DNA of 63,957 nucleotides, the filler included, from Nemertoderma westbladi (lineage: Eukaryota; Animalia; Xenacoelomorpha), in the NCBI GenBank assembly GCA_032718475.1. It is 3 parts of 3 records of this genome, joined end to end, with 100 filler letters (N's around TTAATTAATTAA, not from the genome) between each part and the next. Parts side by side here need not be neighbours in the genome. Positions count along the whole stretch, not along the records: positions 1 to 22,027 come from JAUCBJ010003012.1; 2 more parts are not named here. One strand, written 5' to 3'. The translations under genes were made by a program, and so were the position numbers. Under the pieces are notes generated by a model, which saw only the letters and a program-made list of their open reading frames with translations, did not search any database and was not told where the DNA came from. Shown piece after piece: positions 2,154 to 53,665 of the stretch (position 1 is its first letter; each line of letters begins with the position of its first letter).

Positions 2154-3029
2154 TAGATCAATGGAGACATTGCCCTGGGACGATTAATCCAGCCGACATC
2201 GCCTCCAGAGGAGCAACTCCTCAAGAACTGATAGATACTCCAGACTGGTTAGGTGGACCCGACTTCTTAAGTAAAGAAGAGGATGAATGGCCTCCTCATC
2301 TTACCACGGCTGAGATTAGACAAGCCAAGGGAGTGGAGAAAGTCAAACCTAAAACCCGGACGAGTAAATCAAAGTTATTTAAACCCGTGATAGATCTGTC
2401 TGTACTACACATTTCCAGGGACGACGCTGTGGATCTAAAAAAATCTGTAGAATGCTGTAGAAATCGCCACCTATCTTAACGAGAGACCGTTTATGCCAGT
2501 CTCATCGAGTCCCGACTCCCTGGAAGCACTAACACCCGCGCATTTCCTACTAAAGAAACCTGTAGCCATGCTCCCACAATTGGAAATCACGGACGGAGAC
2601 GAATACTGCCGACAAACTTGGCAACTCATGCAGTTATTATCCCGTCGTTTCGCTGACCATTTCGAAAAACATTATTTGCCTACGCTACAACTTCGAACCA
2701 AGTGGTTTGCGCAGCAAGAAAACGTCAGCGCCGGAGACATGGTCCTTATTGTGGAATCAGATCTTCCACGAAAGCGGTGGCAGACAGGTCGTATCATCGA
2801 GACTCATATATCCGATGATGGTTTAGTGCGATCGGTAGAACTCGTCGTTATGCGACGTAACTTTAAGAAACCTGGAATTGTATTCGAAACACAACAACTC
2901 AATCGCCCAGTTGGTCGTTTATGTTTACTGGAAAGAGACAGAGAACTATCCGGAAACTATGGAAGGCAAGATACTCTTCCCACGACCACCTCCCTAATCC
3001 AACAAACATCTAGGGACTCCCCAACGTAA
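2146..3029 (+). pseudogene. pol: Pao-type pol remnant: RNase H C-terminus and integrase C-terminus, internally deleted
   Basis: QWRHCPGTINPADIASRG...WLGGPDFL, then LNERP...LTPAHFL...YLPTLQLRTKW...GDMVLI...WQTGRI...DGLVRSV...RPVGRLCLLE. These are BEL/Pao-type motifs. Confidence 0.9.
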
Positions 3030-4768: not shown

Positions 4769-6977
4769 ATGACTGAGTTGATAGAAAATGATCTTGGTAT
4801 CATGGAGCGATATACCCTACCATTGCAAGCGTTTGTTGATAGTTTAATACGTGGTGACGTTAGTCAACCCACTACGGAGGACGATGGCCGTTATATCGAA
4901 CCGCCAATGCCAAAGGAACAGCTCACGCGTGAATTGGACTATAGAAAATTCACCGCTCGCTATACGCATCGTAATGGTACATATATGGACTTCTTAACTA
5001 CTGGTCATCCTATCGATTTACATGACACGGACGATGTAGACACCGAAAGGGAAATGATCCTATTTAAATATCATACCCAGCGGAGTCGGAATGATAAACT
5101 GAGAATCGAACACGAAAATTCTATTTGAAACCAACTCGAAAGAGAAGACGTTGAAGAGCCGGATAAACGCAGTCACTTCAACGAATATCTGGAATTCTTG
5201 AGAGAAACATATCTCAATGTAGCCAGTCAACAAACAAAATCTAGAAACTCGATATCCTCAAGGTATACATCATGACCCTATGATAGAACTCAAACGACTC
5301 TATTTCACTATGATGTATCTTACCGCCGATCGACCGCTACCTATTGTACCGGATAGCTTCGAACAGATGGAGGAATATTGTAAAACTGGAGAAAGATCAC
5401 CCGCGTTTCCCCTACAAGACGTGCATCTTTGGTATTATTGCGATGAATGCCCTAGACCCAACCAACAAACGGAAAGACATAAACATCCGCGGAGACGTTG
5501 CGCCAAACACAGTTTTACTCGCTATACTTACGGGAGTTTCGAGCGAAACTTGTTCGATGTATCACCTACGCTCGCTCGACTCAAACGATCCTTAAATAAA
5601 CCGATGATCAGAGTTCCGGAATACTCGGTCAGACCTCCTCATTCCCTGGTGAGACCTCAGACTCTTGATCCTAATAGTATAACGGATCCTCCTGAACTGT
5701 ACTCACTGTTCAAAGATCTAGTGTTACCCAAACAATTAATCGGTGGCACTCCAGTAGTGGGATCTCTAGATATTCGCCCATCCTACCTAGCCGGATTGGG
5801 ACACGGACGTTTAATATCGCCGTTCAACCCGTATAATCGTCCCGGTTTAACCCCGATACAACCCGTCACCGAGGTGGAGGAGAGCGTTGTACGAAACGCG
5901 TTGGACGCTATTCGGCAAAAGATTGGAAAAGGAACTTACGATTGTTTAGATAAACGTAAATTGCAGCAGCAAGTCCAAGCGGTAAAAGAATTAGCTTTAC
6001 CTCAGTTCGATCGAGAAATCCAGAATCTCGAGGAGGACATCGAACTTGGACGAACCCACTCTCTACAAGAGTTTTTGGACGAACGCTTCCAACGACAAGC
6101 GGAGGAAAATTAGCTCGAGGAGAAGCATATAGAAATGGACGAGAGAGAAGAAGCAGCTTTAGCCCAGCCAGAAGCTCAAATCCTTATGACTGATCTCTAT
6201 TCCAAAACCGTTATTCACCCTTCAATGGTTCCCCATTTCGGAGACAAACTCTTCGCCACGGTACAACCCCAACCGGTTGATATCAACCTAAGATCTCGAG
6301 ATCTTATCGCTGATGCTCCTATGTTACAACGTCCACCAATCGAGACCGCTCGTGTCGACGGCATACTCGTTGAACCTCCGGACAATCGAGCGGATCTTGT
6401 CCGTCGTATGGTACACGAGGTCAACCTATGCGCTAGACCTTTTACCGAACTCATTTTATGGGATCAAAGACCACCCTTATTATGTCAATTTAACTCAATA
6501 TTATATGGTGAAACCGGAAGATCCTACATACAGTTTAAAGTTTCTACCATTGATAAATCACGCGGTGACTTGTTCATAAACTCGCATCCAGAGTTACAAG
6601 AAGTTCATAGACAACCATATGAATATAAAGCCAGAGAACGCGAGTTGGAAAGAACCATCAAACCGAGGAAATTTCTCACTACTCACGGTCAACCTACCGC
6701 TCTCGTGCAAACGACTCATCAGGGACCAGTAAGAGCTGCTGTCTTGAAACGCGCTCTAAAGGTTGTTCGACCTCGTTCCACTGAGGTTGATATCGATCAA
6801 CCGGGTACCTCGACCGGCGGATACACTGACCGTAACCCTAAACCTTCCGATGCAATTGTATTGCACCCCTCACCCAGGAGTTATAGCCCTCCTAGTAAAG
6901 TGGCTCGCCCCAAAGAGAAAAGGACTCTTGCTAGCCTCAAAAAACTTCGTAAACACCGTTCACGTAAGAAGGACTAA
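4769..6977 (+). pseudogene. Extra (cargo) ORF of the BEL family, type A, ~735 codons when reconstructed; unknown function
   Basis: The three ORF-track pieces join into one ORF. TGA 5126 is CGA and TAG 6111 is CAG in sister copies, and a 4-nt insertion near 5232 is absent in copy C. Confidence 0.8.
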
Positions 6978-7393
6978 TTGTTTAGAGTATTTTTATATTT
7001 TAGAAACTGTGATTTTTTATATTTTATAGAATTAAATCCCATTTTCTGGGAGCGGTGTAAAAGCTTTTGCGGACATAACAAGTCATTTTTCCCCGCAATG
7101 CGCAGTGTGGGTGCTTTGGCGGACGTGGTGGGTCGTTTTTGCCGCAGTGCGCATAATGCTCTAAAAGATTGGAGCTCAGATGACGAAATCTGTCAGCTGA
7201 TTTCCTGTAGACATGGAGCCTCTTTGTTCTGCTCAGCCAATCAGAGCGATTTTCACTTTATGTTGGACAGGGGCCTATGGAGGACCGCGCGGTGCGTTGC
7301 AGTTTTTGTTTGCCTTTCTGGGCCTCGGGGCCGGCTTGGAGTTCTTCTGGGCTTCCGTTTTGGAGGTTTCGGACTTTGGCCTGGGCATCTGAT

Positions 7394-7541
7394 TGTTAGA
7401 GGTATATTGTATAGGCCATGCCTTACAGGTGGAGGTTGGGGGGCAGCTCTAAGTATGTACCGGTAAGGTGATGATATATATATTTGTGTAGATTAAAGTA
7501 AAGTGTCAGACTTGTATGAACGTGTATTTCAGTATTTAACA
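7394..7541 (+). repeat. Copia 5' LTR (148 bp)
   Basis: TGTTAGA...TTTAACA; differs from the 3' LTR by one substitution and a 7-nt indel. Confidence 0.95.
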
Positions 7542-7559
7542 TGGTAGCAGAGCGTGGTT
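7542..7559 (+). promoter_or_regulatory. Copia primer-binding site, complementary to the 3' end of initiator tRNA-Met
   Basis: TGGTAGCAGAGCGTGGTT abuts the LTR; TGGTAGCAGAG is the PBS typical of GalEa elements. Confidence 0.9.
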
Positions 7560-7969
7560 GTACCGTTACCAAACAGATTTAGGCCTATTGAAAACTTATT
7601 TTAATATAGACATATTGGTGTTGCAAAGACAGAGATCGACTACCACCTACAGACTTTACTTAACTGTGTACTGCTGACTAGGGCTACAGCTGTACATGCT
7701 GTGCAGCAGTGCAGACAGGCCAGCAGGCTGACGTGCTGTGCCTGTTACCAGTATCCTATTATTACCACTGTCAGTACCGACACATCTGACCGTTGCGTTG
7801 ATCCATTTAATCTGTTCAGACAGGCAGACAGCCCCGTATTGGTATTGGTCATACGGGTCTGACGGTAGGCCTAGGCTTACAGGCCTATATCCAGATATCA
7901 TATTTACCGGTATTGCGGTACCTTACTGCTAAGGGTAACCGGTCTGTCGGTGCAAGAATCAAACGGACT

Positions 7970-12575: not shown

Positions 12576-12695
12576 AAAAAAAATAATAATAATAAATAAA
12601 TGGAAAGGGGAATATTAGTCTATACTAGAATTTCATAAATGTGTGGTGGAGGTATTTTATGTATATAACTAACATATTAATTAAAGTAGAGTGAG

Positions 12696-12850
12696 TGTTA
12701 GAGGTATATTGTATAGGCCATGCCTTACAGGTGGAGGTCGGGGGGCAGCTCTAAGTATGTACCGGTAAGGTGATGATATATATATTTGTGTAGATTAAAG
12801 TAAAGTGTCAGACTTGTATGAACGTGTGTCGTGTATTTCAGTATTTAACA
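12696..12850 (+). repeat. Copia 3' LTR (155 bp)
   Basis: Direct repeat of 7394-7541, followed by TSD CTGAT. Confidence 0.95.
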
Positions 12851-17630: not shown

Positions 17631-18815
17631 TGTTCGCGCTTTTGAAGACCTTTAGCAGTTTAACCTGCCAAAATTTATATGTCTTTTAGTTAATTAAAAC
17701 ACCTTTAGCATACGACAATATTTTATGCTAATAAACAAAACATTAACCGAAGCCAGCCCATGCGCGATCATTCACCCGATGGATCTACACCCGGGAGGCT
17801 GAATTCGGCTGCTTAAATTTTATTATTGCAGTGTAAGGTTGCAGTGTAAACCTATTGTATTATTCGATAGATCGTTAATAATTAATTTCTGACAGATATT
17901 ATTTGCTTTCGGGAAATATTAACAGTTCCTTTAGGACGTGGCGCTCTATCTATTTAAACAGAACTAGGACTTATACTAAACGCAACGATACCGCTTAGGA
18001 TTAAAGTATAAGGCACATTCTTTAGGAAATGCTTTGTTACCAATCACAATCATGCACACTATTCTGCCGACCGTCAGTAAATTTGATCACACATAAAGAG
18101 AGCAGCAATTGACTCATGTAGGGTCTGCTAAATAACATTAGATTCAATACACACCACATTAATATAAATCGCAATTGTTATGTATAGCCTGTCTCTCTAA
18201 CCTGTAGTGTATCAAGAAAATTTGGAATTTTGGGTGATTTATCCGTATTCTCCAAAGAGCAATATTTCCTCAACAAATCGATACAATTAATAACTGACGG
18301 TAAATAACAGTACAAACAATATAATTAATAAGTAAAGTTCGGGAGAATTATATGATTAATAACAGTTATACTTTCGATAATTTAAGCAGTTTTACTAGAG
18401 TTCTTCCCAAAAGCCGGTGTTATGGCGAAAAATGGGAACACAACAACAGAATCATATGAAGAATCATATGACTACATAACTATACGAGGATACCAACTAC
18501 CCTTATTCCCCGAAGCTCCCGTCCAACACAGAGGATGAGCAGTGAGATAGGAAAATTCAGTTCAGTAGCTCTGGGATAGGTCAAAATCCACGCCCACTCA
18601 AATTCTATTGGCCGATACGGACAGCAAGGCTGAGGCAACCTCCCTAAGCTGGTTGGCCGATTAAACGGAGCCCAGATACCTTCGTACAGCACATCAGCCA
18701 ATAAGCTGGTAGCTTGCACTATTTTAACTATAGATCCCTTTTAGAGTATTCTAGCGACCGGGGGGGAACTGGCCAGCAAGGCAAACGAATCAGTTATCCC
18801 ACAAAAGCTTTTACA
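17631..18815 (-). repeat. 3' LTR of BEL copy B (1185 bp)
   Basis: Plus strand reads TGTTCGCGCTTTT...AAAAGCTTTTACA, the reverse complement of the family termini. Confidence 0.92.
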
Positions 18816-18893
18816 CCGCTCCCAGAAAATGGGATTTAAGTCTATAAAATATACAAAATCACAGTTTCTAAAATATAAAAATACTCTAAACAG

Positions 18894-20343
18894 TTAGTCT
18901 TTCTTGCGCGGACGGCGTTTACGAGGTTTTTTAAGGCTAGCAAGAGTCCTTTTCTCTTTGGGGCGAGCCACTTTACAAGGAGGGCTATAACTCCTGGGTG
19001 AAGGGTGCAATATGATTGCATCAGAAGGTATGGGATTACGATCGGTATATCCGCCGGTCGAAGTACCGGGTTGATTGACATCAACGTCCGGGGAGAGGGG
19101 TCTAACGGCTTTGAGAGCTCGTTTCAAGACAGCCGCTCTTACGGGTCCTTTACGAGTGGTCTGAACGAGGGCCGTGGGTGGACCATAGGCAGTTAGAAAC
19201 TTCCTTGGTTTAATGGTTCTTTCCAACTCGCGTTCGCGGGCTCGGTACTCGTAAGGCCGTCGATATACTTCCTGTAACTCGGGGTGTGAGTTGACAAATA
19301 AGTCTCCATAGGCAGGATCTTGACGGATAAAGTTTATTAAGTTGTAAGAATTTATGTCACTCGGATTAATGCTCCTGAGAAATTTGCGTACATATTTGGT
19401 TGAAATACATTCTCCAACGCGCTTCAGTAGTTCATAACTTGATAGGCGTGATTTCTGCTCGACGGAGGCAAACAAATAAGGATGGAACGCATAAACTCCT
19501 TCGTAAGCGCGTCCAGGGTAATAGCGATGGCGCGAATCACAATGTAAATCAGCGTTCGCTTCCCAAGCTCTGATGTAACGTAGTGTGATCGTTTCATTTA
19601 CGCCTTCCAAATCGTGACTAAAAAGGGCAATCGAAACTGGCGCGTCCCTTTAGTTGACAATGGTGACATTGAGTCATAAATTGAGGGCAAACCGCAAAAA
19701 TGTGCAAGTTATTGAGTCTGTAATACGCGCAATAAATTTCCATCGTTGGTTGTTCGTGGAAATAGGAACAGCGGACGTTTGTGTCCATGGGCGTAACATG
19801 GTCTCTCGATGCGCATAACCGACAACGTTGCCGAGAAACATAGTTGGCATGGCGATAATCGTACGCAGTGAGACACTGTGGACCTTGATACCATTCTAGG
19901 AGGTAATCGTTGTCGTTGTTCCGGGCGCGATAGGCTGAATCTCCTCAGATTCTAGGCATATTGGTTCGTCTTCCCAGTCTGTTACGAATATAATTTTCGT
20001 GATCTATTCTCGGTTTATCGTTACGACTCCGCTGGGTATGATATTTAAATAGAACCATTTCCCTTTCGGTGTATACATCGTCCGTATCATGTAAATCGAT
20101 AGGATGGCCGGTAGTTAGGAAGTTCATATACGTACCATTACGATGCGTATAGCGAGCGGTTAATTTTCGATAGTCCAATTCACGCGTAAGTTGCTCTTGG
20201 GACATCGGCGGTTCGATATAACGACCATCGTCCTCCGTAATAGTCGGATCGGCTTCACCGCGTATCAAGCTATCCACAAACGCTTGTAAAGGTAGAGTAT
20301 ATCGCTCTCTAATACCAAGGTCATCTTCTATCAATTCCGTCAT
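18894..20343 (-). pseudogene. Extra ORF type B (~483 codons reconstructed) with a central triple Cys/His knuckle region
   Basis: Ends are homologous to type A. The frame stays open past TGA 19945-19947 down to ~19621, then a 1-nt shift joins the 18894-19610 ORF. Confidence 0.78.
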
Positions 20344-22027
20344 ATCTGCTATCTGAGTTTATTAATATCAGTATGAGTTAATATTTAGGCAAGCGGGCGT
20401 CGCTGCCTACTAGTCTTTGCCCCCGGACAGTGGGTTTCTCAGCGCCGATGTACCGTTGTCGCGGTGTTTACGCCAACATGTAGCAACAGCACGACAACGA
20501 TAACCGGCACAAGTCCCACCACTGTCCGTCCCAAAAGCTTGAATCCACTTGAGGTTATCTCGGTAGAGTTAGGGCTACTTTACAATTGCGATTAGCTACT
20601 GTAAACACACTTTAGTAGTAACATTCACCTATAAACGCACAAATTCCATACAATCATTACTTACTGCACACATGCAGGCCATTTGTTCGTCAGTCAGTGT
20701 CTTCCAGAATGTCACGTTATTACTATGTATCCTTGGATACTAATAGTGCGCTATGTATCCTCTTAGGCTACGCAATGGGGCAAGCCTTTTATTGTTCCTT
20801 TAACTTGCTTCTAATTCTAGCGTGGGTGTTGCCATGGTGACATTATGGAAAACTAGCGGTAGAATTAGGGTAATTCTCATGCATACAGATCTGGGATGTT
20901 ATTTAATAGTAATTCTTTAGTTGTCAATATCCTCTTTATGCATGATTTTATAAATTTTATCGGCTATTGACTATATGTTGGAGATTCTCGCACTCTAGTA
21001 CACTCAATATGAATCTCCGCTCCCATGATCTATTAATTACTGGAATTTTGGGAATGTTATAAATTGCACAAAATGACAATTTATGAAATTCATTTGAATA
21101 TGAACTTAAATTTATTCCCGTGAATTTTATTATTTGATGTTAAATTGACAAAAATTTTATTCCAGAGCATATCTGGGGACTTAGGATCCTTAATTCTATA
21201 AAATAGTCCTTCTAAGAATATCGGTAAATACTGCGATATCTTAATTGACTAGAAATTTTAAAGGATCGGGATTTTATAGATTTTAATAAATATTAAATTA
21301 ATATTTAGGATGAGCACCGATTTATTCCAGAACTTGTCTGGGGACGTTAACCACTGATTCTAGAATTTGTCTTTCAAGTATATCGGTGGGTGCCACGATA
21401 TCTTAATCGACTAGAATTACAGATGGTCAAAAAGTTTAACAGATTTATTTGCGATTTACGCTACTGTTAGAGGGACATCACGCTACTATATGTATTATTT
21501 GTTATAAGGTAGAAGAGCAATATCGCACGAAGCAATGTCAGTGTGAAGGGGCAAGTCGTTTCCAAGGTCTACCCAGAGCTTGGTTTAGCCGAGACACGAG
21601 GATCTGAACTTTGCATTCCTAATACTCTGCCTACCAATAATACTTAAATATAGTAGTGGCTTTATTGTACTTTAATAAGTACTGACATGTCATCTTACTA
21701 TAGTCTCGCATTTATAATATAATACGGACAGTAAGGAAAGAGAAAAATAATTATTTCTTGCCGTCGCACTAAATATATTGTAAGTAATTAAATACGTAAT
21801 AAACACTAATATATTGCACTAATTTACTAAATATTCTAAAATAACATTCTACTAAATAAAATTAAAGAAAACGATTATAATAAAATTACATAATAATACA
21901 TACATAAATATAAAATAAAAACAAATATAAAATGATATAGTCACACGCCCACTCCATATGTTATTACGTTATGGAGTCCCTAGATATTTGTCGGATTAGG
22001 GAAGTGGTCGTAGGAAGAGTATCTTGC

Positions 22028-22127
22028 NNNNNNNNNNNNNNNNNNNNNNNNNNNNNNNNNNNNNNNNNNNNTTAATTAATTAANNNNNNNNNNNNNNNNN
22101 NNNNNNNNNNNNNNNNNNNNNNNNNNN
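22028..22127. other. Assembly gap with artificial TTAATTAATTAA spacer
   Basis: 100 nt of N with a central six-frame-stop linker, identical in design to the second gap. Confidence 0.97.
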
Positions 22128-26687: not shown

Positions 26688-27843
26688 TGTAAAAGCTTTT
26701 GTGGGATATAACTGGCCCTTTTGCTTCACAATCCAGTTTCCCTCAATGCGCTCAAATACTCTAAAGAAAAACTCCCTAACTCAAATGATGCAAGCTACCG
26801 GCTGATTGGCTGATTTGCTGTACGTATGGCCTCTTTGTTCTGTTCGATCAACCAACCAGAGCAAGGTCAACCAAGCAGAGTGATTCATCCTGTGTGTTGG
26901 CTAAGGGCTGCAAAAACCCGAATAGTTCGGCATTTAGACATTCGTGGAATCTGTGGAATATGGAGCTCTGCCAATGAGAGCTTTTCCTCTTTGTGTTGAA
27001 AGCTACCTGCAACAGCTCACAGGGTTCAGTGTGTTGGTTTTTCCAGAGCCTAGAACATCGGCTATGAAATTATTCTGAATTATTCCAACATTAGAACGGC
27101 TTTACACATAAAGAACACATAACTGTTACCAGTACGGTACGGTACCTACTGCTGTATTGCACATTATTTACTGCTATTTACTGTTTGTTATTAATTGTAT
27201 CAGTTGTTTACATATTGTTATTTGGAGAATAACGATAAACGATCAGAAACCCCGATCTTCTTGATACACTAAGGTTAGAGAGACCGGTTACATATAGCAA
27301 TTGCGACTTATATTATCATGGTTTGTAGTGAATTGAATGCTATTTTATAGGCCCTACAAATGTCGGTTGCTATTCTCTTTATATATGATTAAAATCAGTG
27401 ACTATCGGCAATTCAGTGTGCAGCGGTGTGCAATAGTCTGTATGTGCTTGTCCGCGTAACAAAGCATCTACTAAAGAATGCGCCTTATGTGTAACTTATA
27501 ATCCATTCCGTTGTGTTTAGTGTAAGCCATAGCTCTGTTTATATAGATAGAGCGCCACGTCCTAAAGGAACTGCTAATATTTCCCGAAAGTGAATGATAT
27601 TTGTCAGGAATTATATTAACGATCAATCGAATAGTACAGTAGGCCTGCACCGCAATCAAATTAAAGCATCCGAATCCAGTCTCCCGGGTATATCCAGCGG
27701 GTGAATGGTCGCGCATAGACTGGCTTCGGCTAATGTTGGATTTATTTGTGTCAAATACTTGTCATAGGTTAAAGTCGATTTATAACCTAGAAGACATATA
27801 GATTTGGCGGGTTAAACTGCCAAAGGTCTTAAAAGCGCGAACA
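26688..27843 (+). repeat. 5' LTR of BEL copy C (1156 bp)
   Basis: TG...CA termini; direct repeat of 38531-39694. Confidence 0.96.
27119..27129 (+). promoter_or_regulatory. Putative transcript 5' end / self-primer (ATAACTGTTAC)
   Basis: Exact reverse complement of 27844-27854. Starts at the A of a C-A dinucleotide (YR initiator-like). The TSS assignment is inferred. Confidence 0.7.
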
Positions 27844-27854
27844 GTAACAGTTAT
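27844..27854 (+). promoter_or_regulatory. Non-tRNA primer-binding site (GTAACAGTTAT)
   Basis: Abuts the LTR, lacks TGG, and is complementary to 27119-27129. Confidence 0.75.
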
Positions 27855-28187
27855 TAACTCTGATTGCAGTGTAGGCAATAAATACAGTTTACTATTGTTC
27901 TGGTAAGAACAATAACAGATATAGCTTCTGTATTGCAGTAGGCAATAAAGCTGAAGTACCGGTTAACCGGTACCTAGTAGGCCTGACTACCTAACCACCC
28001 GGACCGGTACCTACAGCAGTACAGGTACAGCAGTGTTATTCGAATGTGAAATTGTATACCGGTAGGCTGTTTAAGAGATTAGGGACTGTACACCCCTTGT
28101 TTCTTTTGGAGCTTACTTATTTCTGTCAGTTTTATTTACTTGTAGGTTAATATTGAGCAGAAGACGTGTAAGCCTGCCCAGATTGTA

Positions 28188-28768
28188 CAGACAATTTGTA
28201 GGCTGGACTGTTGTCTGACTGTTGTTAAGTCTGAAGGGACTGTAGTGTGTGTAGAGCGTATGTCCGAAAAAGTACTAGTTAGGAAAGTAGGGGCTGCCAG
28301 TGCTGTGAGGTGAACCCCCTCGAAAGAATAAGTCGTACTACTCGGTTAGAACGCATACTAACTAACCATTTCGGAGTCTGCATATACTGTAGTTTATTTA
28401 GGCTTGATAGTAGTCTGCCAGCGTTTGGTCTGTATTTTGTATGTGTAGTCTGTACGGGTAGCGTAATATTTATTACTTAGATAATTTGTAGGCTGGATTT
28501 TGTCTGGCTGTTGTTAGGTCTGAAGAGATTTCGGTATGTGTAGAGTGTATGTCCGATAAAGTGCCAGTTGGGAACGTAGGGGCTTCCAGAGCTGTGAGGT
28601 AAACCCCCTCGAAAGAATAAGTCGTACTACTCGGTTAGAACGCATACTAACTAACCATTTCGGAGTGTGCATATACCGTAGTTTGTTTAGGCTTGATAGT
28701 AGTCTGTCAGTATTTGGTCTGCATTTTGTTTGAGTAGTCTGTACGCGTAGCGTAATATTTATTATTCA
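28188..28768. repeat. Tandem duplication (~290-bp unit x2) in the BEL 5' leader; also at ~47104-47678
   Basis: AGAYAATTTGTAGGCTG...GTAGCGTAATATTTATT is repeated in both copies C and D. Confidence 0.85.
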
Positions 28769-29162
28769 GAGTTTATGTGATTATTCGCAACCTTCATATA
28801 TCCCCAAGTTTATTCCTACAGTAATTGTGCTTGTTATATATACCGTTATAGTTAAACTAACCCCGGTACTACATCAGGGCTGCTTGGCGTAGGTAAAGAC
28901 TGGTGATTTTGTGCCCCGGTCACTCCAGCAGATACCGTGGTTCTTTTAGCTGTTCAAGTATTTTTAACTACTGATTATTTGTTGTATAAGTACTTGTACC
29001 TAATTTAGGGTTTAGTGTACAGTACTTTCCGAAGGTGATTAGTGTGTGGGCAGTATATTTGTGTTGTAAAGTGGTTAATAGGCACGTTGGTTCTGGTAGA
29101 CCGCGGTAATTAACTTCTAGGTAGGAACACTCCGTGATACATAACGTGGTACTTATAGCGAT

Positions 29163-29501
29163 AGTACGAATTTTTACGGTAATTTTACAAGAAGTCTACA
29201 AACCAGCCTAACAAAGGGTTAGAATATCTGGTTATTACAAAGGACAGGGTACTACGGTATTTGAAAATAATAAGTAGTAGTAAATATACTGCGTTGTCCA
29301 GATAGGAAAAATACCACCGTCTGACAACGCTATAAGTCGTCAGACGGTGGTATTTTTCCTATCTGGACAACGCAGTATATTTACTACTACTTATTATTTT
29401 CAAATACCGTAGTACCCTGTCCTTTGTAATAACCAGATATTCTAACCCTTTGTTAGGCTGGTTTGTAGACTTCTTGTAAAATTACCCTAAAAATTCGTAC
29501 T
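29163..29501. repeat. Near-perfect inverted repeat (~163-bp arms, 13-nt spacer)
   Basis: 29163-29325 is the reverse complement of 29339-29501, with one mismatch seen. Copy D has only one arm. Confidence 0.95.
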
Positions 29502-29714
29502 TGTAATTTTTGTGTTTATTTAGAGATTGTAATCTCACCCGAATTGTATGTAATTTGTAGTATTAAGTAACTTAGGTAAATTAGAATTATTTGTTTTAGT
29601 GTCCAACAAGTAGCACTCCACTGAGAGCGCACAGCTTCTGTGTAGTGACTTCCCCCAGAAATAATAACATTTATTTCAAATATTGACAAAAACCCATTTT
29701 AACGGGTATATATA

Positions 29715-30024
29715 CTAGAGACGGCGTCAAGATGCCGTTAAGCAAGTCGGAAGTCATCAATCAAATGTAAATTCCATCAACAAGCTGTCATTGGTGTTAT
29801 TTTACCATTGCGCCTATGGCGTTTTTTTCATTTATGTCTATTTTTCGAGCCCACGGCTCATGGACGAAATAGCGGAACATACCAGGGACCTTAGAATCGT
29901 GGTATCTAGCCGCTGTGAAAATTTCATCAAAATCGTTAGAGTAGTTTTGGCTGTAGATCAGTCAGTCAGCCAGCCAGCCAGTCAGCCAACAATTCTTACA
30001 GTAATCAAGTCCTACGACTTGCTA
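29715..30024 (-). mobile_element. Small HINE/DINE-like non-autonomous rolling-circle element
   Basis: Absent from copy D. CTAG terminus next to hairpin GACGGCGTC-AA-GATGCCGTT. Subterminal IR AGCAAGTCG/CGACTTGCT. Internal (CAGY)n microsatellite. Confidence 0.7.
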
Positions 30025-30698
30025 ATTATAAATCAACTCAAACCGATTTATAAAATAGTAGGCCTGTCTTACAACAATTAGGTCAAAATATCAGTTGGAC
30101 TACTGCTTAAATAACGGTAATCAAGAAAAGCAAAGTAACCAAGTAACCCCTAAAATTTCAGAAATTCAATTATTCTAAAATAATTGACATACCGGTATTT
30201 ACCATAGGCTTATTATATTTATTTCTATAAATTTAGGCTAAATTATATACCGGTATTCTGTAATTAATTCTAGTCTGTAATTATACTTCTATATATACAT
30301 TATAAGTGTAAGCTGTATACCGGTATTCACGATAGGCCTATTATATATTTATAAATTTAGGCTGAAATTATACCGGTATTCTGTAATTAATTCTAGTTAA
30401 TAATTATACTTATATATACTATAAGTGTAAGCTGTATACCAGTATTCACGATAGGCCTATTATATATATTTATATATTTGTGCTAAAATTATATACTGGT
30501 ATTCTGTGACAAATCTAGTCTGTGACAATACTTATATATATATATTATAAGCATACCGGTATTCTAATATATTATATATATATTACGCTACACTGAGTAG
30601 CAGTATCGGTAATTAATTACTAAGCTAACAGTGATACTGAATTACTAGACTTGCTTAAACTGTAATAGAGCAGTAGGCATTCAACTGTACAAACAAAC

Positions 30699-33600
30699 AT
30701 GTCTGACACAAAGCAAAACCTGTCAGACAGTCTCCTAGATACAACCATCTGTGACCCAGACAGGAGTGTGGAACGTGTGAGACCGAAGTTCAACTCACCT
30801 CCTACTGTAAGAAAGATCATCCCTCCAGTAGTAATATCAGACCCTAGGCTAGTCCAACACCGTAGGTCTGTCATAGGCACTAGAGCTCAGGTCAAGCAGG
30901 ACCAAGAAGCAGTGGAACAGCAACAACCCGCGAGCCAAGAACTTGTTTCTCAGCGGCCCGACAGCTCCAGTAGTGCGGATACTGTAGAGCTGACACCCGA
31001 GCACGGAGCAAAGATGACAGATGCGGTTTATTCGGACCACCTTCTCATCCTTCCTGCAGCCGTACTCACTAGGTTATTGATTGCGGTGGAAGAACACCAG
31101 ATCGATTGGGCGAGAAATAAGCGATCGACTAAAGATAGTTATGCGGGATACACAAGGGAAGAACTGAAGTCTATTGTCGAGTCGCAATGGAACTTCCCCG
31201 GACCCGGACTCCCGTTTGATTTATCAGAAGCTGCCTGGGAAGACATACACAGGATGGGAGTAATCAAGGAAACCATCGATCCAGCTGTGTGGAAGAGGTC
31301 CGCAGCCGGATACGTACAGGGATTCTTCAGCTCCATGGAGCGATTAGAAGAACAATTGTTTAGACAATCACAAGGACCTCAAGAGCAGGGAGAACTGCTT
31401 TATCAAGTTCGAGAAAGAATTCTAAGAATCAGACTAATCCTATCGGCCTTTGAGGAGGCTTCGAAAAGAAAACAGGACACGTCGTTGCAAGTTGCCGTAA
31501 AAACTTGGTTACAGCGGGTGAGTCTCCAAGTTCAAAGAACTGCCCCGTGGAAATCTCAGTTAGCGGAGCGCTCAACCCTTGGAGAATCCACAGACGCCAC
31601 ATTTTCCCAAGTGGAAAGTGAAGCGACGGTGGAGAAACCGCATAAGAGGGATGCTATTGACATCTATCTGTCGGACTATCAACGTTTTGTATGAGATGAA
31701 GAGTTGAGGAGAAGACTAGATGGACTTAGCCCTAATAGTGAAGGAGCCAAGCTTGTGTTGGACGCAATCGATGTGGATAGGTTAGCTGCGAACCAAGCTA
31801 AATTCAATGAAAGCATCCGCATCGCTAAGGTTCAAGAAGTACAAGTAAAGAAAAAACGTATAGAAGATAGAAAGACAGCAGCAGCGGCAGTGGCAGCGGC
31901 CGAAGCGGAAAGAAAGCTAGCAGTGGCAGAAGCAGAACGGAGGGCATCTGAAGAGACAACCCAACTAGAGTTGGAAAATCTTCAAGAGAGGCAAGACAAC
32001 TTCAATAAACAGTTAACAGCTAGTAATATGCAGATGATGAGTCGATCTACTCCCAAAAGACAGGGATATACATCATCTGAGGAAGGCGATACCATCGATA
32101 CTGAAGGCGGAGGAAATAGATCTCGTCTAAGCAGACGTAGAAGAATATCCCACCGTCAGAAATTGCCTGATTTGCCCCCAGCTGTTAGAAGGCAACTAAA
32201 TAACACAAACTTAGGTAGTACAGAACCCACAGACCAAATAATTAAAATAGAAAGACTCCCTACTATAGTAGATGAGCCTGAAATAATTAGGCCTGTTCCC
32301 GAAGCCACCCCTTCGGTGATAGAGACACCTGTACTCCCTGAACCTACCTCTAAATTCCCTCTGCACAGCACTAAGCTATCTGTGCCCCACAGAACCACCC
32401 TTGAAAATGTTCATGTCCTGGACTCCGAGCGAAATATTAATGATTTGTCGCCCGTTGTCCCTCGTCCGCCCGCTACAACGTTGGCGCCTCCCGCTTCGGC
32501 GGTCGAGTGGGTAGATGAGGGACGACGGGAGATGGGTCTCCTGCTCGGGCAGTTGAGGGAACACCGTTCCCGCTCCTCTCAGCAAGTCCAGGAGATGGAG
32601 GGGACTGTGCAGCAGTTAAAGGGAACAGTTAGAGAGAGTAGGTTAGAGTTGCAAGAAGTGCAGCAAAGTATCGCGTTAGAACGCGATAAATTAGTAAATA
32701 CACAAAAGGGTATACCACCACCCCCTGTAACAATGTGTCAACCTGTTAGGTCTGAAGTATTTCATGCGCAAGGTGTGGAGCCTACACGCATCTATACTGC
32801 TAGCGAAGTGGAAACTCCTATAGTAAACCCTATTAAGGGTAATTATAAACCTGTTGACAATGATATTCCATATAGACTTGATAATAATCCGAGAAATTTA
32901 TATACCGATAATTCGATATTAAATAACACGATGGCCCAAGAAAGTTTTACGCGTCAAATGGCTAGAACCGAAGCCCGTCAAGCAGTAAAGGTGGGAGAGA
33001 TCGTCAAGTTCAATGGAGATGAGATGAAATGGTTACCTTTTAATGAATATTACAAAGATAATGTACAGAACTCTGTGCTATCTAACGGAGAGAAACTTAG
33101 ATTCCTTATCGAGTGCTTGGAAGGATCTCCCAAGTTAATGGCGTTAAAGTTTATTGGACATCCAGATGGATTAAGACAAGTTTGGGATACACTGAACATC
33201 AGGTATGGTAATAGGACTAACATAGCTAGGTATTTATATGCGAAATTAATGGCGCCCCGAAAGTTTCTTAGCAGCAGGATTATAGAGTTTTCCTACGAGA
33301 TTCAGGAGATCTGTAGACAACTAGATTGGTTAGGTAAGTCTCATGAATACCAGAATTCTATGGTTGTAGGAGCCTTAGCATCTAATTTGCCCAAGGGCGG
33401 AGTAGGTACACGCTGGGACAAGACAGTGTTATATATGATGGAACAACAACGAAGAGATCCTACCATGGCTGATCTCATGTCATTCTTAGATGGAGAGGTA
33501 AAATTACAGCTCCTAAAGCAGTCCAGAGAGAAGACACCGGAAAACAAGGTAAGTGAGAAACCCGTTTCTAGGAGAAAGGTAATACCAGTGTGTTATACAG

Positions 33601-35272
33601 ACGACGGCGAAAGCCAGGCTTCTCAAGAGGAAGACAGCGGGAAAGACACTGAAAGATCTTACTATGACAACAAAGCGCCTAAGGACGTAAGTAAATTCAA
33701 GTCTCGAACCAATGACAGGAGAGAACAGGTAAGAAAAACTCCTCCTACGTCTCCTAAGAGAATTCATGTAAGAAAGCCCGAAGAAAGAACGAGTGTGCAC
33801 AACGTTACTCAAAGTAAGGTAAGTAACATCAAACCAAAATGTGTGCTGTGCGACGGGCCCCCCGTTTAAGTGCGTGTGATGAATTCCTGAGGAAATCACT
33901 AAAGGACAGACGTGAAGTCATGTGGGATAAGCGGTTGTGTTATAATTGCCTCAGACGAGGACACCAACGGCGAACCTGTTACTCCGACGCAAGGTGTGCA
34001 AAGTGCGGCGCAAAACATCATATCTTGTTGCACACTGAATTCGATCGAAACAGCCCGAGTCAGGTAAGTGAGTCCGAACTACATGTCCAATTCAGTGATG
34101 TGAACGACACTGACCAAAGTTCTGAGATTGAAGGATTCTATACGGACGAATTCTCCGACGAAGATGAATCCTGTTACATGATAAATACCGCAGTGTATCG
34201 AGCACTTACGTATGAAAAAGATACAAACAGCGAGCTCACCCTAACTACTTCTGATCGACAACCATCTTGGAAAGCACCAACTTCCAATGTAGGAATCCGA
34301 GAATTTCCCGTAGTGCAGTTAAGGGTCCACGGACCTAAAAGGAGTTATATAGTGAACGCCCTCCTTGACTCCGGTAGCACAGGAACATTCATCGACAAAG
34401 AACTAGCCGAAGACATCTTTGCTGGACAACCCAAGTTCCGAACTAAGTTAATCATGTCAGGAATTATGCAGGTTTGGAAATCTACAGTAATAGCGGATTA
34501 TTATGTAGGTGCGTTGTCCACCCCCCAGGATGAACTAGGAGAACATAGTATAAGGTCAGTAAAAATGGTGGCGATAAAGAACTTCGCTACCAGCCAAGTA
34601 GAACCTTATAACTGGGATGAGGACGATTCCACCCAGCAGCTTAATGTACCTAGATTCAACACAGATTACCCTGGAGTGCAAATACTCATCGGCCAAAATG
34701 CGCATGAAGCGCTTGAGACATTGGAGAAACGGCCTGCTCAACCGCAACCATTACAAGTCTATGCGGGAAGAACTAGAGTGGGTTGGTACTTTACTGGCCC
34801 TTCCCGTAGAACTCTCATGGAAAGATTACCGAAAGAACAGGTATATCAATTAAGTGAACGGGCAGTGGAGAGCAGTGAAGTTGACAACCCAACTGAGGGA
34901 ACACCATACTCCTCAGATAATGACGATATCAACTCCAATGTAGATCAATGGAGACATTGCCCCGAGACGATTAATCTAGCCGACATCGCTTCCAGAGGAG
35001 CAACTCCTCAAGAACTGATAGACACTCCAGCGTGGTTAGGTGGACCTGACTTCCTAAGTAAAGAAGATGAATGGCCGCCTCCTCATCTTACCCCGGCTAA
35101 GATTAGACAGACCAAGGGAGCGGAGAAAGTAACACAACAACTCAATCGCCCAGCTGGTCGTTTATGTTTACTGGAAAGAAACCGAAAACTGTCCGGAAAC
35201 TATGGAAAGCAAGATACTCTTCCCACGACCACCTCCCTAATCCAACAAATATCTAGGGACTCCATAACGTAA
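30699..35272 (+). pseudogene. gag-pol: BEL/Pao gag-protease fused to RNase H and integrase tail remnants; in-frame TGA at 31692, 1-nt frameshift near 33860, RT deleted
   Basis: Gag core KFNGDEMKWLPF...EKLRFLIECLEG...WDTLNIRYG. Three knuckles: CVLC, CYNCLRRGHQRRTC, CAKCGAKHHILLH. Protease ALLDSGS. Then QWRHCP..NLADIASRG and RPAGRLCLLE. Confidence 0.9.
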
Positions 35273-36929
35273 CAACATACGGAGTGGGTGTGTGACTATA
35301 TTATTTTATATTTATTTCTATTATTTTATATTATGTATGTATTATTATGTAATTTCATTATAATCGTTTTCTTTAATTTTATTTAGTAGAATGTTATTTT
35401 AGCGATTATTTAGTAGATTAGTGCAATATATTAGCGTTTATTACTTAATTACCTGTATATTATATATTTAGTGCGACGGCGAGAAATAATTCTTTTTCTC
35501 TTTCCTTACTGTCCGTATTACATTATAAATACGTGACTACAGTAAGATGAAATCTCCGTACTTATTAAAGTACAATAAAGCTCCTACTATATTTAAGTAT
35601 TATTGGTAGGCAGAGTATTAGGAATGCAAAGTTCAGATCCTCGTGTCTCGGCTAAACCAAGCTCTGGGTAGACCTTGGAAACGACTTGCCTCTTCACACT
35701 GACATTGCTTCGTGCGATATTGCTCTCATACCGTATATTAAATAATACATATAGTAGCGTGATGTCCCATTAACAGTAGCGTAAAACGCAAAATAAATCT
35801 GTTAAACCCTTTGACCATCTGCAATTCTAGTCGATTAAGATATCGCGGCACCCACCGATATACTTGAAAGACAAATTTCTAGAATCAGTGGTTAACGTCC
35901 CCAGACTTGTTCTGGAATAAACCGGTGCCCATCCCAAATATTAACTATTAATATTTATAAAATCCGTCAAATTTCAGATCCTTTAACATTCTAGTCGATT
36001 AAGATATCGTAGCACTTACCGATACTCTTAAAAAGACAAAATTCCTAGAATCAAGGATCCCAGTCCCCAGACTTGTTCTGGAATAAAATTGTGTCTATTT
36101 TAATATTAAATAATAAAATTACGGGAATAAATTTAAATTCATCTTTTAATGAATTTGATAAATTGTTATTTTATACAATTTATAATATTCCCAAAATTCC
36201 ATTAATTAATAGATCATGGGAGCGGAGATTCACCTATTAAGTGTATTAGTGTGCGAGAATCTCCAATATAGAGTCAATAGCCGATAAAATTCATAAAATC
36301 ATGTATCAAGATGATATTGACCATTAAAGACTTACTATTAAATAGCATCCCAGATCTGTATGCATGGGAATTACCCTAATTCTACCGCTAGCTTTCCATA
36401 ATGTCACCATAGCAACAACCACGCTAGAATTAGAAGCGAGTTAACAGAACAATAAAAAGCTTGCTCATTGAATAGCATACGGAATAAATAGCACACCGCT
36501 AGTATCCAAGGATACATAATAACAACGTGACATTCTGGAAGGCACTTGACTAACGGATAAATGACCCGAATGTGTGATAGAATGTGTGCCATTTGTGACA
36601 GTTACGTGGAATTTGTGCGTTTGTAGGTGAATGTTACTACTAAGGTGTGTTTACAGTAGCGAGTCGCAATTGTGAAAGTAGCCCTAACTCTCCAGTAAGA
36701 ACCTGAAGTATATCTAAGCCTTTGGGACGGACGGTGGAGTGACTCGTGCTGGTTGTTGTAGTCGTTGTGCAGCTACGACGTTGGCGATAGGCACATCGGC
36801 GAAAGTACACCAGCGCTGAGGATCTCGCACTGTCCGGGGGCAGAGAGGGGTAGGCAGCGATGCCCGCTCGCCTAAATATAAACTCATTATATAACCTTAT
36901 ATAAACTTAGATAAACTTATATAGCAGAT

Positions 36930-38452
36930 ATGATTGAGTTGATAGAAGATGATCTTGGTATCAGGGAGCGATATACTCTACCTTTACAAGCGTTTGTTGA
37001 TAGCTTGATACGCGGCGACGCTGGTCCAACTACTACGGAGGACGATGGTCGTTATATCTAACCGCCAATGTCCTGGGAGCAACTTGCGCGTGGGTTGGAC
37101 TGTAGAAAATTCACCGCTCGCTATACGCATCGTAATGGTACGTATATGGACTTCTTAACTACTGGTCATCCTATCGACCTACACGATACGAACGATATAG
37201 ACACCAAAAGGGAAATGGTTTTATTTAAATATCATACCCAGCGGAAGCGGAACGATAAACTGAGACTCGAGCACTAAAATTCTATTCGAAACCGACTCGA
37301 AAGTGCAGATGTTGAAGAGCCGGATAAACGCAGCGACTTCACCAAATACCTGGAATTCTTGAGAGAAACCTATCTCGATATTACCAGTCAACAGAATCTA
37401 GAAACTCGATATCCTCAAGGTATACATCATGACCGCATGGTAGAACTCAAATGGCTCTATTCCACTATGATGTATCTTACCGCCGATCGACCGCTACCTG
37501 TTGTACCGGATAGCTTCGAACAGATGGAGGAATATTGTAAGCTGGAGAAAGATCACTCGCGTTTCCCCTACAAGACGTGCGTCTTTGGTATTATTGCGAT
37601 GAATGCCCTAGACCCAACCAACAAACGGAAAGACCTAAACATCCGCGGAGACGTTGCACTAAACACGGTTTTACTCGCTATACTTATGGGAGTTTCGAGC
37701 GAAATTTGTTTGACGTATCACCTACGCTCGTTCGACTCAGACGATCCTTAAATAAACCAATGATCAGAGTTTCGGAATACTCGATCAGACCTCCTCATTC
37801 CCTAGTGAGACCTCAGGCTCTTAATCCTATTAGTATGACGGATCCTCCCGAGCTGTACTCACTGTTCAAAGATCTAGTGTTACCTGAACAATTAGTCGGT
37901 GGCACCCCGGTTGTGGGCTTCCTAGATATTAGCCCATCCTACCTAGCCGGATTGGGACGCGGACATTTAATATCGCCGTTTAACTCTTACCATCGTCCCG
38001 GCTTAACACGATATAACCTGTCACCAAAGTGGCGGAGAGCGTTGTACCAAATGAGTTAGACGCTATTCTACAAAGATCAGAAAAGGAACTTACGCTTGTT
38101 CAGATAAACGTAAATTGCACTAGCAAGTCCAAGCGGTAAACAAAGTAACTTTATCTCAGTTCGATCGGGAAATCCAGAATCTCTAAGAAGTTATCGAACT
38201 TGGACGACCCTATTCTCTGCGAGAGTTTTTGGATGAACGTATCCAGCTACGAGCGGAGGAAAATCAGCTCGAGGAGAAGCATATCGAAACGGCGGATACC
38301 CCGACCATAATCCTACACCTTTTCATGCAATCATATTGCACCCTTCACCCAGGAGTTATAGCCCTCCTAGTAAAGTGGCTCCCCCCAAAGAGAAAAGGAC
38401 TCTTGCTAGCTTTAAAAAACTGCGTAAACGCCGTCCACGCAAGACAGACTAA
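36930..38452 (+). pseudogene. Extra ORF type A in copy C, degraded, with an internal deletion near 38289
   Basis: Homologous to 4769-6977, with several stops and frameshifts. Confidence 0.85.
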
Positions 38453-38530
38453 CTGTTTAGAGTATTTTTATATTTTAGAAACTGTGATTTTTTATATTTT
38501 ATAGAATTAAATCCCATTTTCTGGGAGCGG

Positions 38531-39694
38531 TGTAAAAGCTTTTGTGGGATATAACTGGCCCTTTCTTTTGCTTCGCAATCCAGTTTCCCTCAATGCGCTC
38601 AAATACTCTAAAGAAAAACTCCCTAACTCAAATGATGCAAGCTACCGGCTGATTGGCTGATTTGCTGTACGTATGGCCTCTTTGTTCTGTTCGATCAACC
38701 AACCAGAGCAAGGTCAACCAAGCAGAGTGATTCATCCTGTGTGTTGGCTAAGGGCTGCAAAAACCCGAATAGTTCGGCATTTAGACATTCGTGGAATCTG
38801 TGGAATATGGAGCTCTGCCAATGAGAGCTTTTCCTCTTTGTGTTGAAAGCTACCTGCAACAGCTCACAGGGTTCAGTGTGTTGGTTTTTCCAGAGCCTAG
38901 AACATCAGCTATGGAATTATTCTGAATTATTCCAACATTAGAACGGCTTTAATTATAAGAACACATAACTGTTACCGGTACGGTACGGTACGGTACCTAC
39001 TGCTGTATTGCACATTATTTACTGCTATTTACTGTTTGTTATTAATTGTATCAGTTGTTTACATATTGTTATTTGGAGAATAACGATAAACGATCAGAAA
39101 CCCCGATCTTCTTGATACACTAAGGTTAGAGAGACCGGTTACATATAGCAATTGCGACTTATATTATCGTGGTTTGTAGTGAATTGAATGCTATTTTATA
39201 GGCCCTACAAATGTCGGTTGCTATTCTCTTTATATATGATTAAAATCAGTGACTATCGGCAATTCAGTGTGCAGCGGTGTGCAATAGTCTGTATGTGCTT
39301 GTCCGCGTAACAAAGCATCTCCTAAAGAATGCGCCTTATGTGTAACTTATAATCCATTCCGTTGTGTTTAGTGTAAGCCATAGCTCTGTTTATATAGATA
39401 GAGCGCCACGTCCTAAAGGAACTGCTAATATTTCCCGAAAGTGAATGATATTTGTCAGGAATTATATTAACGATCAATCGAATAGTACGGTAGGCCTGCA
39501 CCGCAATCAAATTAAAGCATCCGAATCCAGTCTCCCGGGTATATCCAGAGGGTGAATGGTCGCGCATAGACTGGCTTCGGCTAATGTTGGATTTAATTGT
39601 GTCAAATACTTGTCATAGGCTAAAGTCGATTTATAACCTAGAAGACATATAGATTTGGCGGGTTAAACTGCCAAAGGTCTTAAAAGCGCGAACA
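38531..39694 (+). repeat. 3' LTR of BEL copy C (1164 bp)
   Basis: Direct repeat of the 5' LTR, preceded by GGGAGCGG. Confidence 0.96.
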
Positions 39695-44562: not shown

Positions 44563-45545
44563 ATCTAGCGCGTAGGTTGACCTCGTGTACCATACGACGG
44601 ACAAGATCCTCTCGATTGTCCGGAGGTTCAACGAGTATACCGTCGACACGAGCGGCCTCGATTGGCGGACGTTGTAACATAGGAGCGTCAGCGATAAGAT
44701 CTCTAGACCTTAAGTTGATATCAACCGGTTGGGGATGTACCGTGGAGAAGAGTTTGTCTCCGAAATGGGGAACCATCGAAGGATGAATAATGGTTTTGGA
44801 ATAGAGATCAGTCATAAGGATTTGAGCTTCTGGTTGGGCTAAAGCTGCTTCTTCTCTCTCATCCATTTCGATGTGTTTCTCCTCGAGCTGATTTTCCTCC
44901 GCTTGTCGTTGGAAGCGTTCGTCCAAAAACTCTTGCAGAGAGTAGGTTCGTCCAAGTTCGATATCTTCTTCGAGATTTTGGATTTCCCGATCGAATTGGG
45001 GTAAAGCTAATTATTTTACCGCTTGGACTTGTTGTTGCAATTTACGTTTGTCTAAACAATCGTAGGTTCCTTTTCCGATCTTTTGTCGAATAGCGTCTAA
45101 CGCGTTTCGTACAACGCTCTCCTCCACATCGGTGACGGGTTGTATCGGGGTTAAACCGGGACGATTATACGGGTTGAACGGCGATATTAGATGTCCGCAT
45201 CCCAATCCGGCTAGGTAGGATGGGCGAATATCTAGAGAGCCCACAACCGGAGTGCCACCGACTAATTGTTCGGGTAACACTAGATCTTTGAACAATGAGT
45301 ACAACTCAGGAGGATCCGTCATACTATTAGGATCAAGAGTCTGAGGTCTCACCAGGGAATGAGGAGGTCTGACCGAGTATTCCGGAACTCTGATCATAGG
45401 TTTATTTAAGGATCGTTTGAGTCGAGCGAGCGTAGGTGATACGTCGAACAAGTTTCGCTCGAAACTCCCGTAAGTGTAGCGAGTAAAACTGTGTTTAGCG
45501 CAACGTCTCCGCGGATGTTTATGTCTTTCCATGTGTTGGTTGGGT
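44563..45545 (-). pseudogene. Fragment of type-A extra ORF (BEL copy E), interrupted by copy D
   Basis: The translation is nearly identical to 5455-6437. Confidence 0.9.
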
Positions 45546-53598: not shown

Positions 53599-53665
53599 CC
53601 GAGCAGTTCCGCTCTTATTTGGTGGGGAAACTATTATATCAATCATATAAACTGATTTACATGTA

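What the first reader, a model, noticed from the sequence alone, without database searches (positions are those of the whole stretch)
19308..19974. Exchangeable central module in the extra ORF; the type-B module hides three zinc-knuckle-like motifs
Seen: copies A and B share the N-terminal ~123 aa (to HENxIRNxL) and the C-terminal ~137 aa (from GDLFxNSHPELQEV). Their middles do not align (A ~5138-6562; B ~19308-19974). Reading through TGA 19945-19947 gives CRLCASRDH...C, CAYYRLNNLHIFAVCP and CHHCQLKGRASFDCP (19627-19824). These are three CCHC-like knuckles, two with single-base ligand losses, and they are absent from the ORF track. Inference: a cassette-like protein with constant ends and swappable metal or nucleic-acid-binding payloads, as expected in a host-element conflict.
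Basis: partly seen in the sequence, partly recalled or inferred. Interest (0 to 1): 0.7.

Follow-up and report, generated by a model that had tools for sequence, protein, structure and literature searches.

The report
Retrotransposon accessory gene, two alternative middles
A jumping gene of the BEL/Pao kind carries an extra gene with no known relatives whose middle comes in two unrelated versions, one with three zinc-knuckle-like motifs found in many other copies; this copy is broken and is likely a chance out-of-frame join rather than a precise swap, and the protein is predicted to bind nucleic acid.

Summary
Copies A and B of a BEL/Pao LTR retrotransposon share the ends of an extra ORF (ORF3, between integrase and 3' LTR) but have unalignable middles; the three knuckle-like motifs are where stated. 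Type B is no accident: it is covered end to end in four public runs, in copies up to ~19% diverged, and 96-100% of laid depth carries the two ligands this copy lost. Both ends and both middles show purifying selection; type A has its own CCHC-like motif. The clean-cassette reading holds on one side only. The right boundary is old and in frame. The left boundary is not: a diverged lineage continues the B module upstream into sequence absent from the window, substitutions there favour another frame, the join sits at a short microhomology, and the stop at 19945 is shared by a deep contig. Copy C shows a second out-of-frame deletion that also multiplied. So: two old, selected ORF3 types, reshuffled by recombination; this copy is a decayed derivative. 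No homologue, fold, expression or sign of host conflict was found. A new variant of a known kind, moderate interest.

The parts
19975..20343 (-). Copy B, shared N-terminal 123 codons of the extra ORF (ORF3)
   Evidence: dN/dS 0.13 against copy A
19976..19982 (-). Left join of copy B: short microhomology between an A-like N-terminus and the inside of the B module; a diverged lineage leaves the window sequence at 19982
   Evidence: (loose ends X5 19982, X3 record 14)
19929..19982 (-). Junction-proximal B segment; substitutions in other copies are mostly synonymous in a frame other than the N-terminal one; holds the TGA at 19945-19947
19768..19824 (-). Knuckle-like motif 1, CX2CX4HX9C (atypical spacing)
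19684..19731 (-). Knuckle-like motif 2, CX2CX5HX4C; second ligand lost in this copy, present in 98-100% of laid depth in 4 of 4 runs
19624..19668 (-). Knuckle-like motif 3, canonical CX2CX4HX4C spacing; histidine lost in this copy, present in 96-100% of laid depth in 4 of 4 runs
19618..19624 (-). Stop and frame change between the knuckles and the rest of the ORF in this copy
19308..19617 (-). 3' half of the type-B middle, in frame with the shared C-terminus; 21 of 33 listed variable sites at third codon positions
   Evidence: p 0.0004
18894..19307 (-). Copy B, shared C-terminal 137 codons with basic tail (13 K/R in last 25 residues)
   Evidence: dN/dS 0.09, synonymous sites saturated next to the junction
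17631..18825 (-). Polypurine tract and 3' LTR of copy B (LTR 18815-17631)
4769..6977 (+). Copy A extra ORF (two premature stops, one frame change); type-A middle 5144-6563
5439..5501 (+). CX2CX11HX4C motif in the type-A middle (histidine lost in copy C, 37595)
2451..3029 (+). Integrase C-terminal remnant (DUF5641) upstream of copy A's extra ORF
   Evidence: E 1.4e-21
26688..39694 (+). Element C: TG..CA LTRs 98% alike, 5-bp target duplication, gag (DUF1759), protease, pol mostly deleted
36930..38452 (+). Copy C extra ORF: type-A middle with an out-of-frame deletion at ~38290 whose join is also seen in two public runs
   Evidence: (loose ends at 19037 in X4, X5)
44564..45545 (-). Fragment D: 982 bases of type-A middle, 94% to copy A
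   Evidence: dN/dS 0.12

Best explanation
This is the third, env-position ORF of a BEL/Pao retrotransposon family, present in two unrelated middle versions on a shared C-terminus; the protein is predicted to be a nuclear nucleic-acid-binding helper, and copy B is likely a decayed, out-of-frame recombinant of a longer type-B gene. Shown: position, two middle types, multi-copy type B, ligands in other copies, purifying selection, breaks. Inferred: the two types split long ago at the right boundary; reverse-transcriptase template switching between co-packaged RNAs has since homogenised the flanks and, at a short microhomology, joined an A-like N-terminus to the inside of the B module; such derivatives multiply because helper copies supply proteins in trans. 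Inferred with least support: knuckles plus basic tail bind the element's own RNA in the nucleus and aid its export or packaging, as Rev-type proteins and Cer1 CERV do.
For: Position between DUF5641 and PPT/LTR in A, B, C. dN/dS 0.13 (N), 0.09 (C), 0.12 (A-middle A/D), third-position bias in the B-middle 21 of 33, p 0.0004. Synonymous difference 0.94 in the first 23 codons after the right boundary falling to 0.17-0.27 near the LTR, but only 0.22 next to the left boundary. B-middle covered in 30 of 30 bins in 4 of 4 runs; contigs up to 19% diverged span the B-middle up to the right boundary region. A diverged lineage (X3 record 14, X5 loose end of at least 255 letters) leaves the window at 19982; its next 30 letters have no match in the window (best 13 mismatches of 30). 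At 19930-19954 a diverged contig differs by 3 synonymous and 1 replacing codon in the other frame, against 1 and 4 in the N-terminal frame. X5 record 32 (depth 2918) has six differences, all accounted for at other places, and no gap, so it shares the join and the TGA. The out-of-frame deletion join of copy C recurs in X4 and X5. No hydrophobic segment (max KD19 1.05), 12-13 K/R in the last 25 residues. All ten best Atlas hits with a family share the zf-CCHC family or clan, best score 0.86, a lead only.
Against: The frame argument rests on 25 letters of one contig plus two polymorphic sites. The knuckles do lie in the N-terminal frame in this subfamily, which could mean a second indel was kept because it re-coupled them. 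Only 30 letters of the longer type-B upstream part were seen, so its link to the shared N-terminus is unknown. The break near 19620 is absent from 5 of 5 listed bridging contigs (each has a gap) but only 159 of 2602 X5 depth and 50 of 8252 X1 depth show the gap at 19620, so its spread is unresolved. Depths are summed contig depths, not copy numbers. No homologue, fold or transcript supports the function.
Confidence: 0.6

Rival explanations
1. One reading: a cassette protein with fixed ends and swappable payloads, diversified by conflict with host silencing; the TGA is read through or is a recent lesion.
For: Two selected, unrelated middles on 86-87% identical ends; sharp protein-level boundary on the right; both middles hold CCHC-type motifs; the N-terminus and knuckles share one frame in this subfamily.
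Against: Left boundary differs between type-B lineages; stop shared by a deep contig; frame evidence against the read-through frame; only two payload types seen; no excess of replacing changes anywhere.
Confidence: 0.17
2. A and B are both deletion products of one longer ORF holding both middles.
For: Deletions at microhomologies are common in this family (copy C; a 160-base skip in X5) and B is cut on its left side.
Against: The sequence upstream of the B module in the diverged lineage does not match the A middle; none of the 21 loose ends shown of 111 is an A-middle/B-middle join; saturated synonymous sites beside the right boundary imply long separate descent of the A and B C-termini.
Confidence: 0.12
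3. The B module is a piece of another element's gag nucleocapsid or of a host zinc-knuckle gene, captured in frame and kept; the A middle is the ancestral state.
For: Knuckle pair with canonical look; Atlas neighbours are zf-CCHC and Gag fragments at 0.79-0.86; LTR elements are known to capture ORF3s (PMC5408684).
Against: No donor found: no match to the window's BEL or copia gag knuckles and no protein hit in 1.84 billion representatives. Which middle is ancestral cannot be told.
Confidence: 0.11

Closest known systems
Variable ORF3s of bdelloid rotifer LTR retrotransposons (Juno, Vesta, TelKA; PMC5408684, read parts 1-3 of 5)
   Same: Non-env ORF between pol and 3' LTR, differing among related families, proposed to be gained by RT template switching; microhomology deletions give partial copies.
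   Different: There whole ORF3s (env, GDSL, DEDDy, coiled-coil) differ between gypsy-like families; here a BEL/Pao family keeps the ends of one ORF and differs in the middle, the protein has no known relative, and it shows clear purifying selection.
BEL/Pao (Belpaoviridae) env-like third genes (PMC8742986 whole text; PMC3118150 passages)
   Same: Same position and orientation in the same family.
   Different: No signal or membrane segment, no fusogen match; basic tail and zinc-knuckle-like motifs instead.
CERV of C. elegans Cer1 (PMC10309623, passages)
   Same: Retrotransposon accessory protein with a cysteine-rich loop and a basic nuclear signal, needed for export of genomic RNA: the functional model used here.
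   Different: Cer1 is Ty3/gypsy, CERV shares its N-terminus with Gag and has a possible C4 finger; no sequence likeness was found or tested directly.
Additional ORFs of plant LTR retrotransposons (PMC7264820, part 1 of 3)
   Same: Conserved orphan ORFs between pol and 3' LTR of unknown origin and role.
   Different: Plant gypsy/copia elements, often antisense; the part read reports no alternative middles.

Membership tests
BEL/Pao LTR retrotransposon (Belpaoviridae) | LTRs of 0.2-1.2 kb with TG..CA ends and a target duplication | tested here: met
   Element C: ~1.16 kb LTRs, 98% alike, 5-bp duplication
BEL/Pao LTR retrotransposon (Belpaoviridae) | BEL-type gag and integrase C-terminal domains (DUF1759, DUF5641; their link to BEL/Pao is recalled) | tested here: met
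   DUF1759 E 1.2e-11, DUF5641 E 1.4e-21, weak protease and knuckle hits
BEL/Pao LTR retrotransposon (Belpaoviridae) | pol order PR-RT-RH-IN and RT phylogeny | tested here: inconclusive
   No copy in the window keeps RT or the integrase core; remnants are in the expected order
BEL/Pao LTR retrotransposon (Belpaoviridae) | Polypurine tract before the 3' LTR | tested here: met
   Purine-rich ~10 bases before the LTR in A and B and C
BEL/Pao LTR retrotransposon (Belpaoviridae) | tRNA primer-binding site after the 5' LTR | tested here: inconclusive
   None evident by eye after C's 5' LTR; not compared with host tRNAs
env / viral fusogen | Signal peptide and transmembrane anchor | tested here: not met
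   Highest 19-residue hydropathy 0.46-1.05 in six segments
env / viral fusogen | Homology to a viral envelope protein | tested here: not met
   No Pfam, PHROGs or PDB match
Retroviral-type CCHC zinc knuckle | CX2CX4HX4C spacing with all four ligands | tested here: inconclusive
   Motif 3 canonical with ligand in other copies; motif 2 has X5; motif 1 has X9; none complete and canonical in this copy; Pfam E 0.072 only
Retroviral-type CCHC zinc knuckle | Zinc and single-stranded nucleic acid binding | not testable with these tools
   Needs biochemistry
Cassette-exchange system (fixed ends, swappable payloads) | Coinciding breakpoints and preserved frame at both ends | tested here: not met
   Right end in frame in A and B; left end differs between type-B lineages and is followed by a shared stop
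Cassette-exchange system (fixed ends, swappable payloads) | Many payload types | tested here: inconclusive
   Two types plus deletion forms seen; loose-end tables cut (24 of 361 and 21 of 111 shown); no genome held
Conflict-driven gene | Excess of replacing changes | tested here: not met
   Pairwise dN/dS 0.09-0.42 over five comparisons plus two more at 0.22; site-level test not possible

The most novel reading that the evidence does not exclude
A BEL/Pao family keeps a modular accessory protein, unlike any known, in which alternative zinc-finger payloads (a triple knuckle, or a long-loop CCHC plus coiled region) are carried on one conserved basic C-terminal scaffold and exchanged between subfamilies by template switching, each aimed at a different RNA or host silencing target.
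Probability: 0.2. Interest if true: 0.7.

Novelty: new variant of a known kind. Interest (0 to 1): 0.38.

Why it matters
Extra ORFs at the env position of LTR retrotransposons are mostly unexplained. This one is plainly selected, is not an envelope, has no relative among 1.84 billion protein representatives, and comes in two old forms that differ only in part of the gene, which gives a natural comparison for mapping what each domain does. If the forms target different host factors it would be a rare case of domain-level exchange in a retrotransposon accessory gene. The copy flagged is itself likely dead.

Tried and rejected
No genome held, so no census of copies. Protein searches found nothing: B N-terminus plus knuckles against longer and near-length proteins and 1.84 billion representatives; A middle plus C-terminus; shorter proteins not searched. 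DNA collections: no relative in viral, prokaryote or metagenome contigs. Pfam, PHROGs, PDB sequences: nothing significant. Atlas: no usable hit for the A middle, lead only for the knuckles. Single-sequence AlphaFold models were unusable (mean pLDDT 38 and 45), so no fold search was run. No RNA holder listed; X4 is only guessed to be RNA, so expression is untested. Earlier findings: none. Programmed frameshifting at 19620 considered and set aside: bridging contigs differ in length there, which points to decay. Remote homology of the two middles rejected at tblastx level. Literature searches for a BEL/Pao third ORF with zinc knuckles or swapped middles listed none in titles or abstract openings; the library lacks most subscription papers and Repbase, and I did not open the BEL/Pao sequence supplement of PMC3118150, which could hold relatives.

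Full report
Setting. The window is repeat-rich eukaryotic DNA; no genome is held for it. Self-alignment shows four pieces of one LTR family. Element C (26688-39694) has TG..CA LTRs of about 1.16 kb, 98% alike, and a 5-bp target duplication, a gag with DUF1759 (E 1.2e-11) and a protease; copy A keeps DUF5641 (E 1.4e-21). These domains mark BEL/Pao elements (recalled); the ICTV profile gives LTRs of 0.2-1.2 kb and an occasional env-like third gene of unknown function (PMC8742986, whole text). No copy here keeps RT or the integrase core. The ORF in question lies in sense between the pol end and the polypurine tract, ending about 80 bases before the 3' LTR.

The observation. A and B align up to 5143/19969 and again from 6564/19307, giving 123 and 137 shared codons. 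The middles (1420 and about 675 bases) show no blastn or tblastx likeness. The three motifs are at 19824, 19731 and 19668, in the N-terminal frame beyond the TGA at 19945-19947. No base shuffle of 3000 gave two such motifs in a frame and no residue shuffle of 20000 gave three, though the pattern was fitted after the fact. Two additions: a stop and frame change near 19620 cut the knuckles from the C-terminal frame, and the type-A middle has its own CX2CX11HX4C motif at 5439.

Type B is real and many-copied. Nine runs were listed, seven holding the stretch; I laid four, from four studies, one of which may be the window's own source. The B middle is covered in 30 of 30 bins in 4 of 4 runs, by 2986, 949, 24 and 49 contigs. 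Listed contigs bridge the left join (X5 record 29) and the right boundary (X5 record 26, 13% different; X4 record 18). At the two ligand positions this copy has lost, the other copies read cysteine (98-100% of laid depth) and histidine (96-100%) in all four runs. A diverged contig over knuckle 2 differs by 5 synonymous and 2 replacing codons in the knuckle frame, against 0 and 6 or 2 and 5 in the other frames. The single-copy-accident refutation fails. Depths are summed contig depths and were not used as copy numbers.

Selection. dN/dS is 0.13 (N-terminus A/B), 0.22 (A/C, B/C), 0.09 (C-terminus A/B), 0.12 (A middle, A/D) and 0.42 (A middle, A/C, a decayed copy). In the 3' half of the B middle 21 of 33 listed variable sites fall on third positions of the C-terminal frame (p 0.0004; only the sites shown in the cut tables were counted). 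The gene and both middles were protein-coding and conserved. Nothing points to positive selection.

The two boundaries differ. On the right, the protein is about 86% identical from the first shared codon while synonymous sites are saturated (0.94) and then fall to 0.17-0.27 towards the LTR. That fits an old in-frame replacement of the middle followed by recombination that homogenised the distal part (inference). On the left, synonymous difference is low (0.22) up to the join, which is abrupt. A diverged type-B lineage matches the window only up to 19982 and then runs on into other sequence (X3 record 14; X5 loose end of at least 255 letters) whose first 30 letters have no match in the window. 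The same lineage shows small indels at 19926-19930. Between there and the join, a diverged contig differs by 3 synonymous and 1 replacing codon in the acidic frame but 1 and 4 in the frame that holds the TGA, and both polymorphic sites listed there are third positions of the acidic frame. A-type copies and B share 6 of 7 bases at the join. The deepest X5 contig over the join has six differences, all listed at other places, and no gap, so it carries the join and the stop. I read copy B as a member of an amplified subfamily made by an out-of-frame join of an A-like N-terminus to the inside of a longer B module. The evidence for the frame is thin (25 letters and two sites), and the knuckles do end up in the N-terminal frame, which a cassette model could use.

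A precedent in the window. Copy C lost the end of the A middle and the start of the C-terminus at a 2-3 base microhomology, out of frame, and that join appears as a loose end in X4 and X5. X5 also shows a 160-base skip across the right boundary. Broken ORF3 forms therefore spread in this family, as expected if the product is supplied in trans or is dispensable in cis. The break near 19620 is unresolved: 5 of 5 listed contigs that bridge it have a gap, and depth collapses there, but only 159 of 2602 (X5) and 50 of 8252 (X1) depth show the gap at 19620.

Function. No homologue was found in any protein, profile, structure-sequence or contig search, and both models were too poor to search. The protein has no hydrophobic segment and ends in a strongly basic tail, so it is not an envelope. 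The Atlas places the knuckle segment near zf-CCHC clusters at 0.86, a lead only. CCHC arrays in nucleocapsids bind genomic RNA (PMC10309623 and PMC2774666, passages). The likeliest role is a nuclear RNA-binding helper for export or packaging, by analogy with CERV (passages); I give this role about one in three, anti-silencing somewhat less. Expression is untested.

Comparison and verdict. Variable non-env ORF3s are known in bdelloid LTR elements, with template switching proposed as the source (PMC5408684, parts 1-3 of 5), and orphan ORFs in plant elements (PMC7264820, part 1 of 3). Eight literature searches listed no BEL/Pao third ORF with knuckles or alternative middles; I saw listings and abstract openings only, apart from the papers named. 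The finding is a new variant of a known kind: a selected orphan ORF3 with two old middle types. The precise, conflict-driven cassette is not excluded but lacks its left boundary, more payloads and any sign of adaptive change. Interest 0.38.

Noticed in passing
window 44564-45559 (-): Fragment D (type-A middle) is preceded by an inverted copy of the LTR's first ~14 bases and sits in a MULE-like remnant (Pfam E 0.003); this looks like an autointegration-type product.
   Followed up: partly
window 7390-12850 (+): A copia-type element (integrase before RVT_2, ~150-bp LTRs 94% alike) splits copy A's 3' LTR.
   Followed up: no
window 30669-31694 and 48972-49898 (+): A ~340-codon reading frame without Pfam match precedes the DUF1759 gag, separated in copy C by one stop; the BEL gag region is unusually long.
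   Followed up: no
window 51364-53739 (-): A 791-codon ORF that looks by eye like a Penelope-type RT with a GIY-YIG-like end (recalled motifs; only a weak Pfam hit).
   Followed up: no
window 4760-4771, 20341-20352, 36921-36932: An AG lies 2 bases before the extra ORF's ATG after an AT-rich stretch in all three copies; possible splice acceptor.
   Followed up: no
window 60849-61329 and 62860-63255: Tandem arrays, the first of 60-base units over 99% alike and open in several frames.
   Followed up: no
window 22028-22127 and 49847-49946: Assembly gaps (N runs) cut off the 5' part of copy B and the 3' part of a fifth copy, so B's pol cannot be seen.
   Followed up: yes
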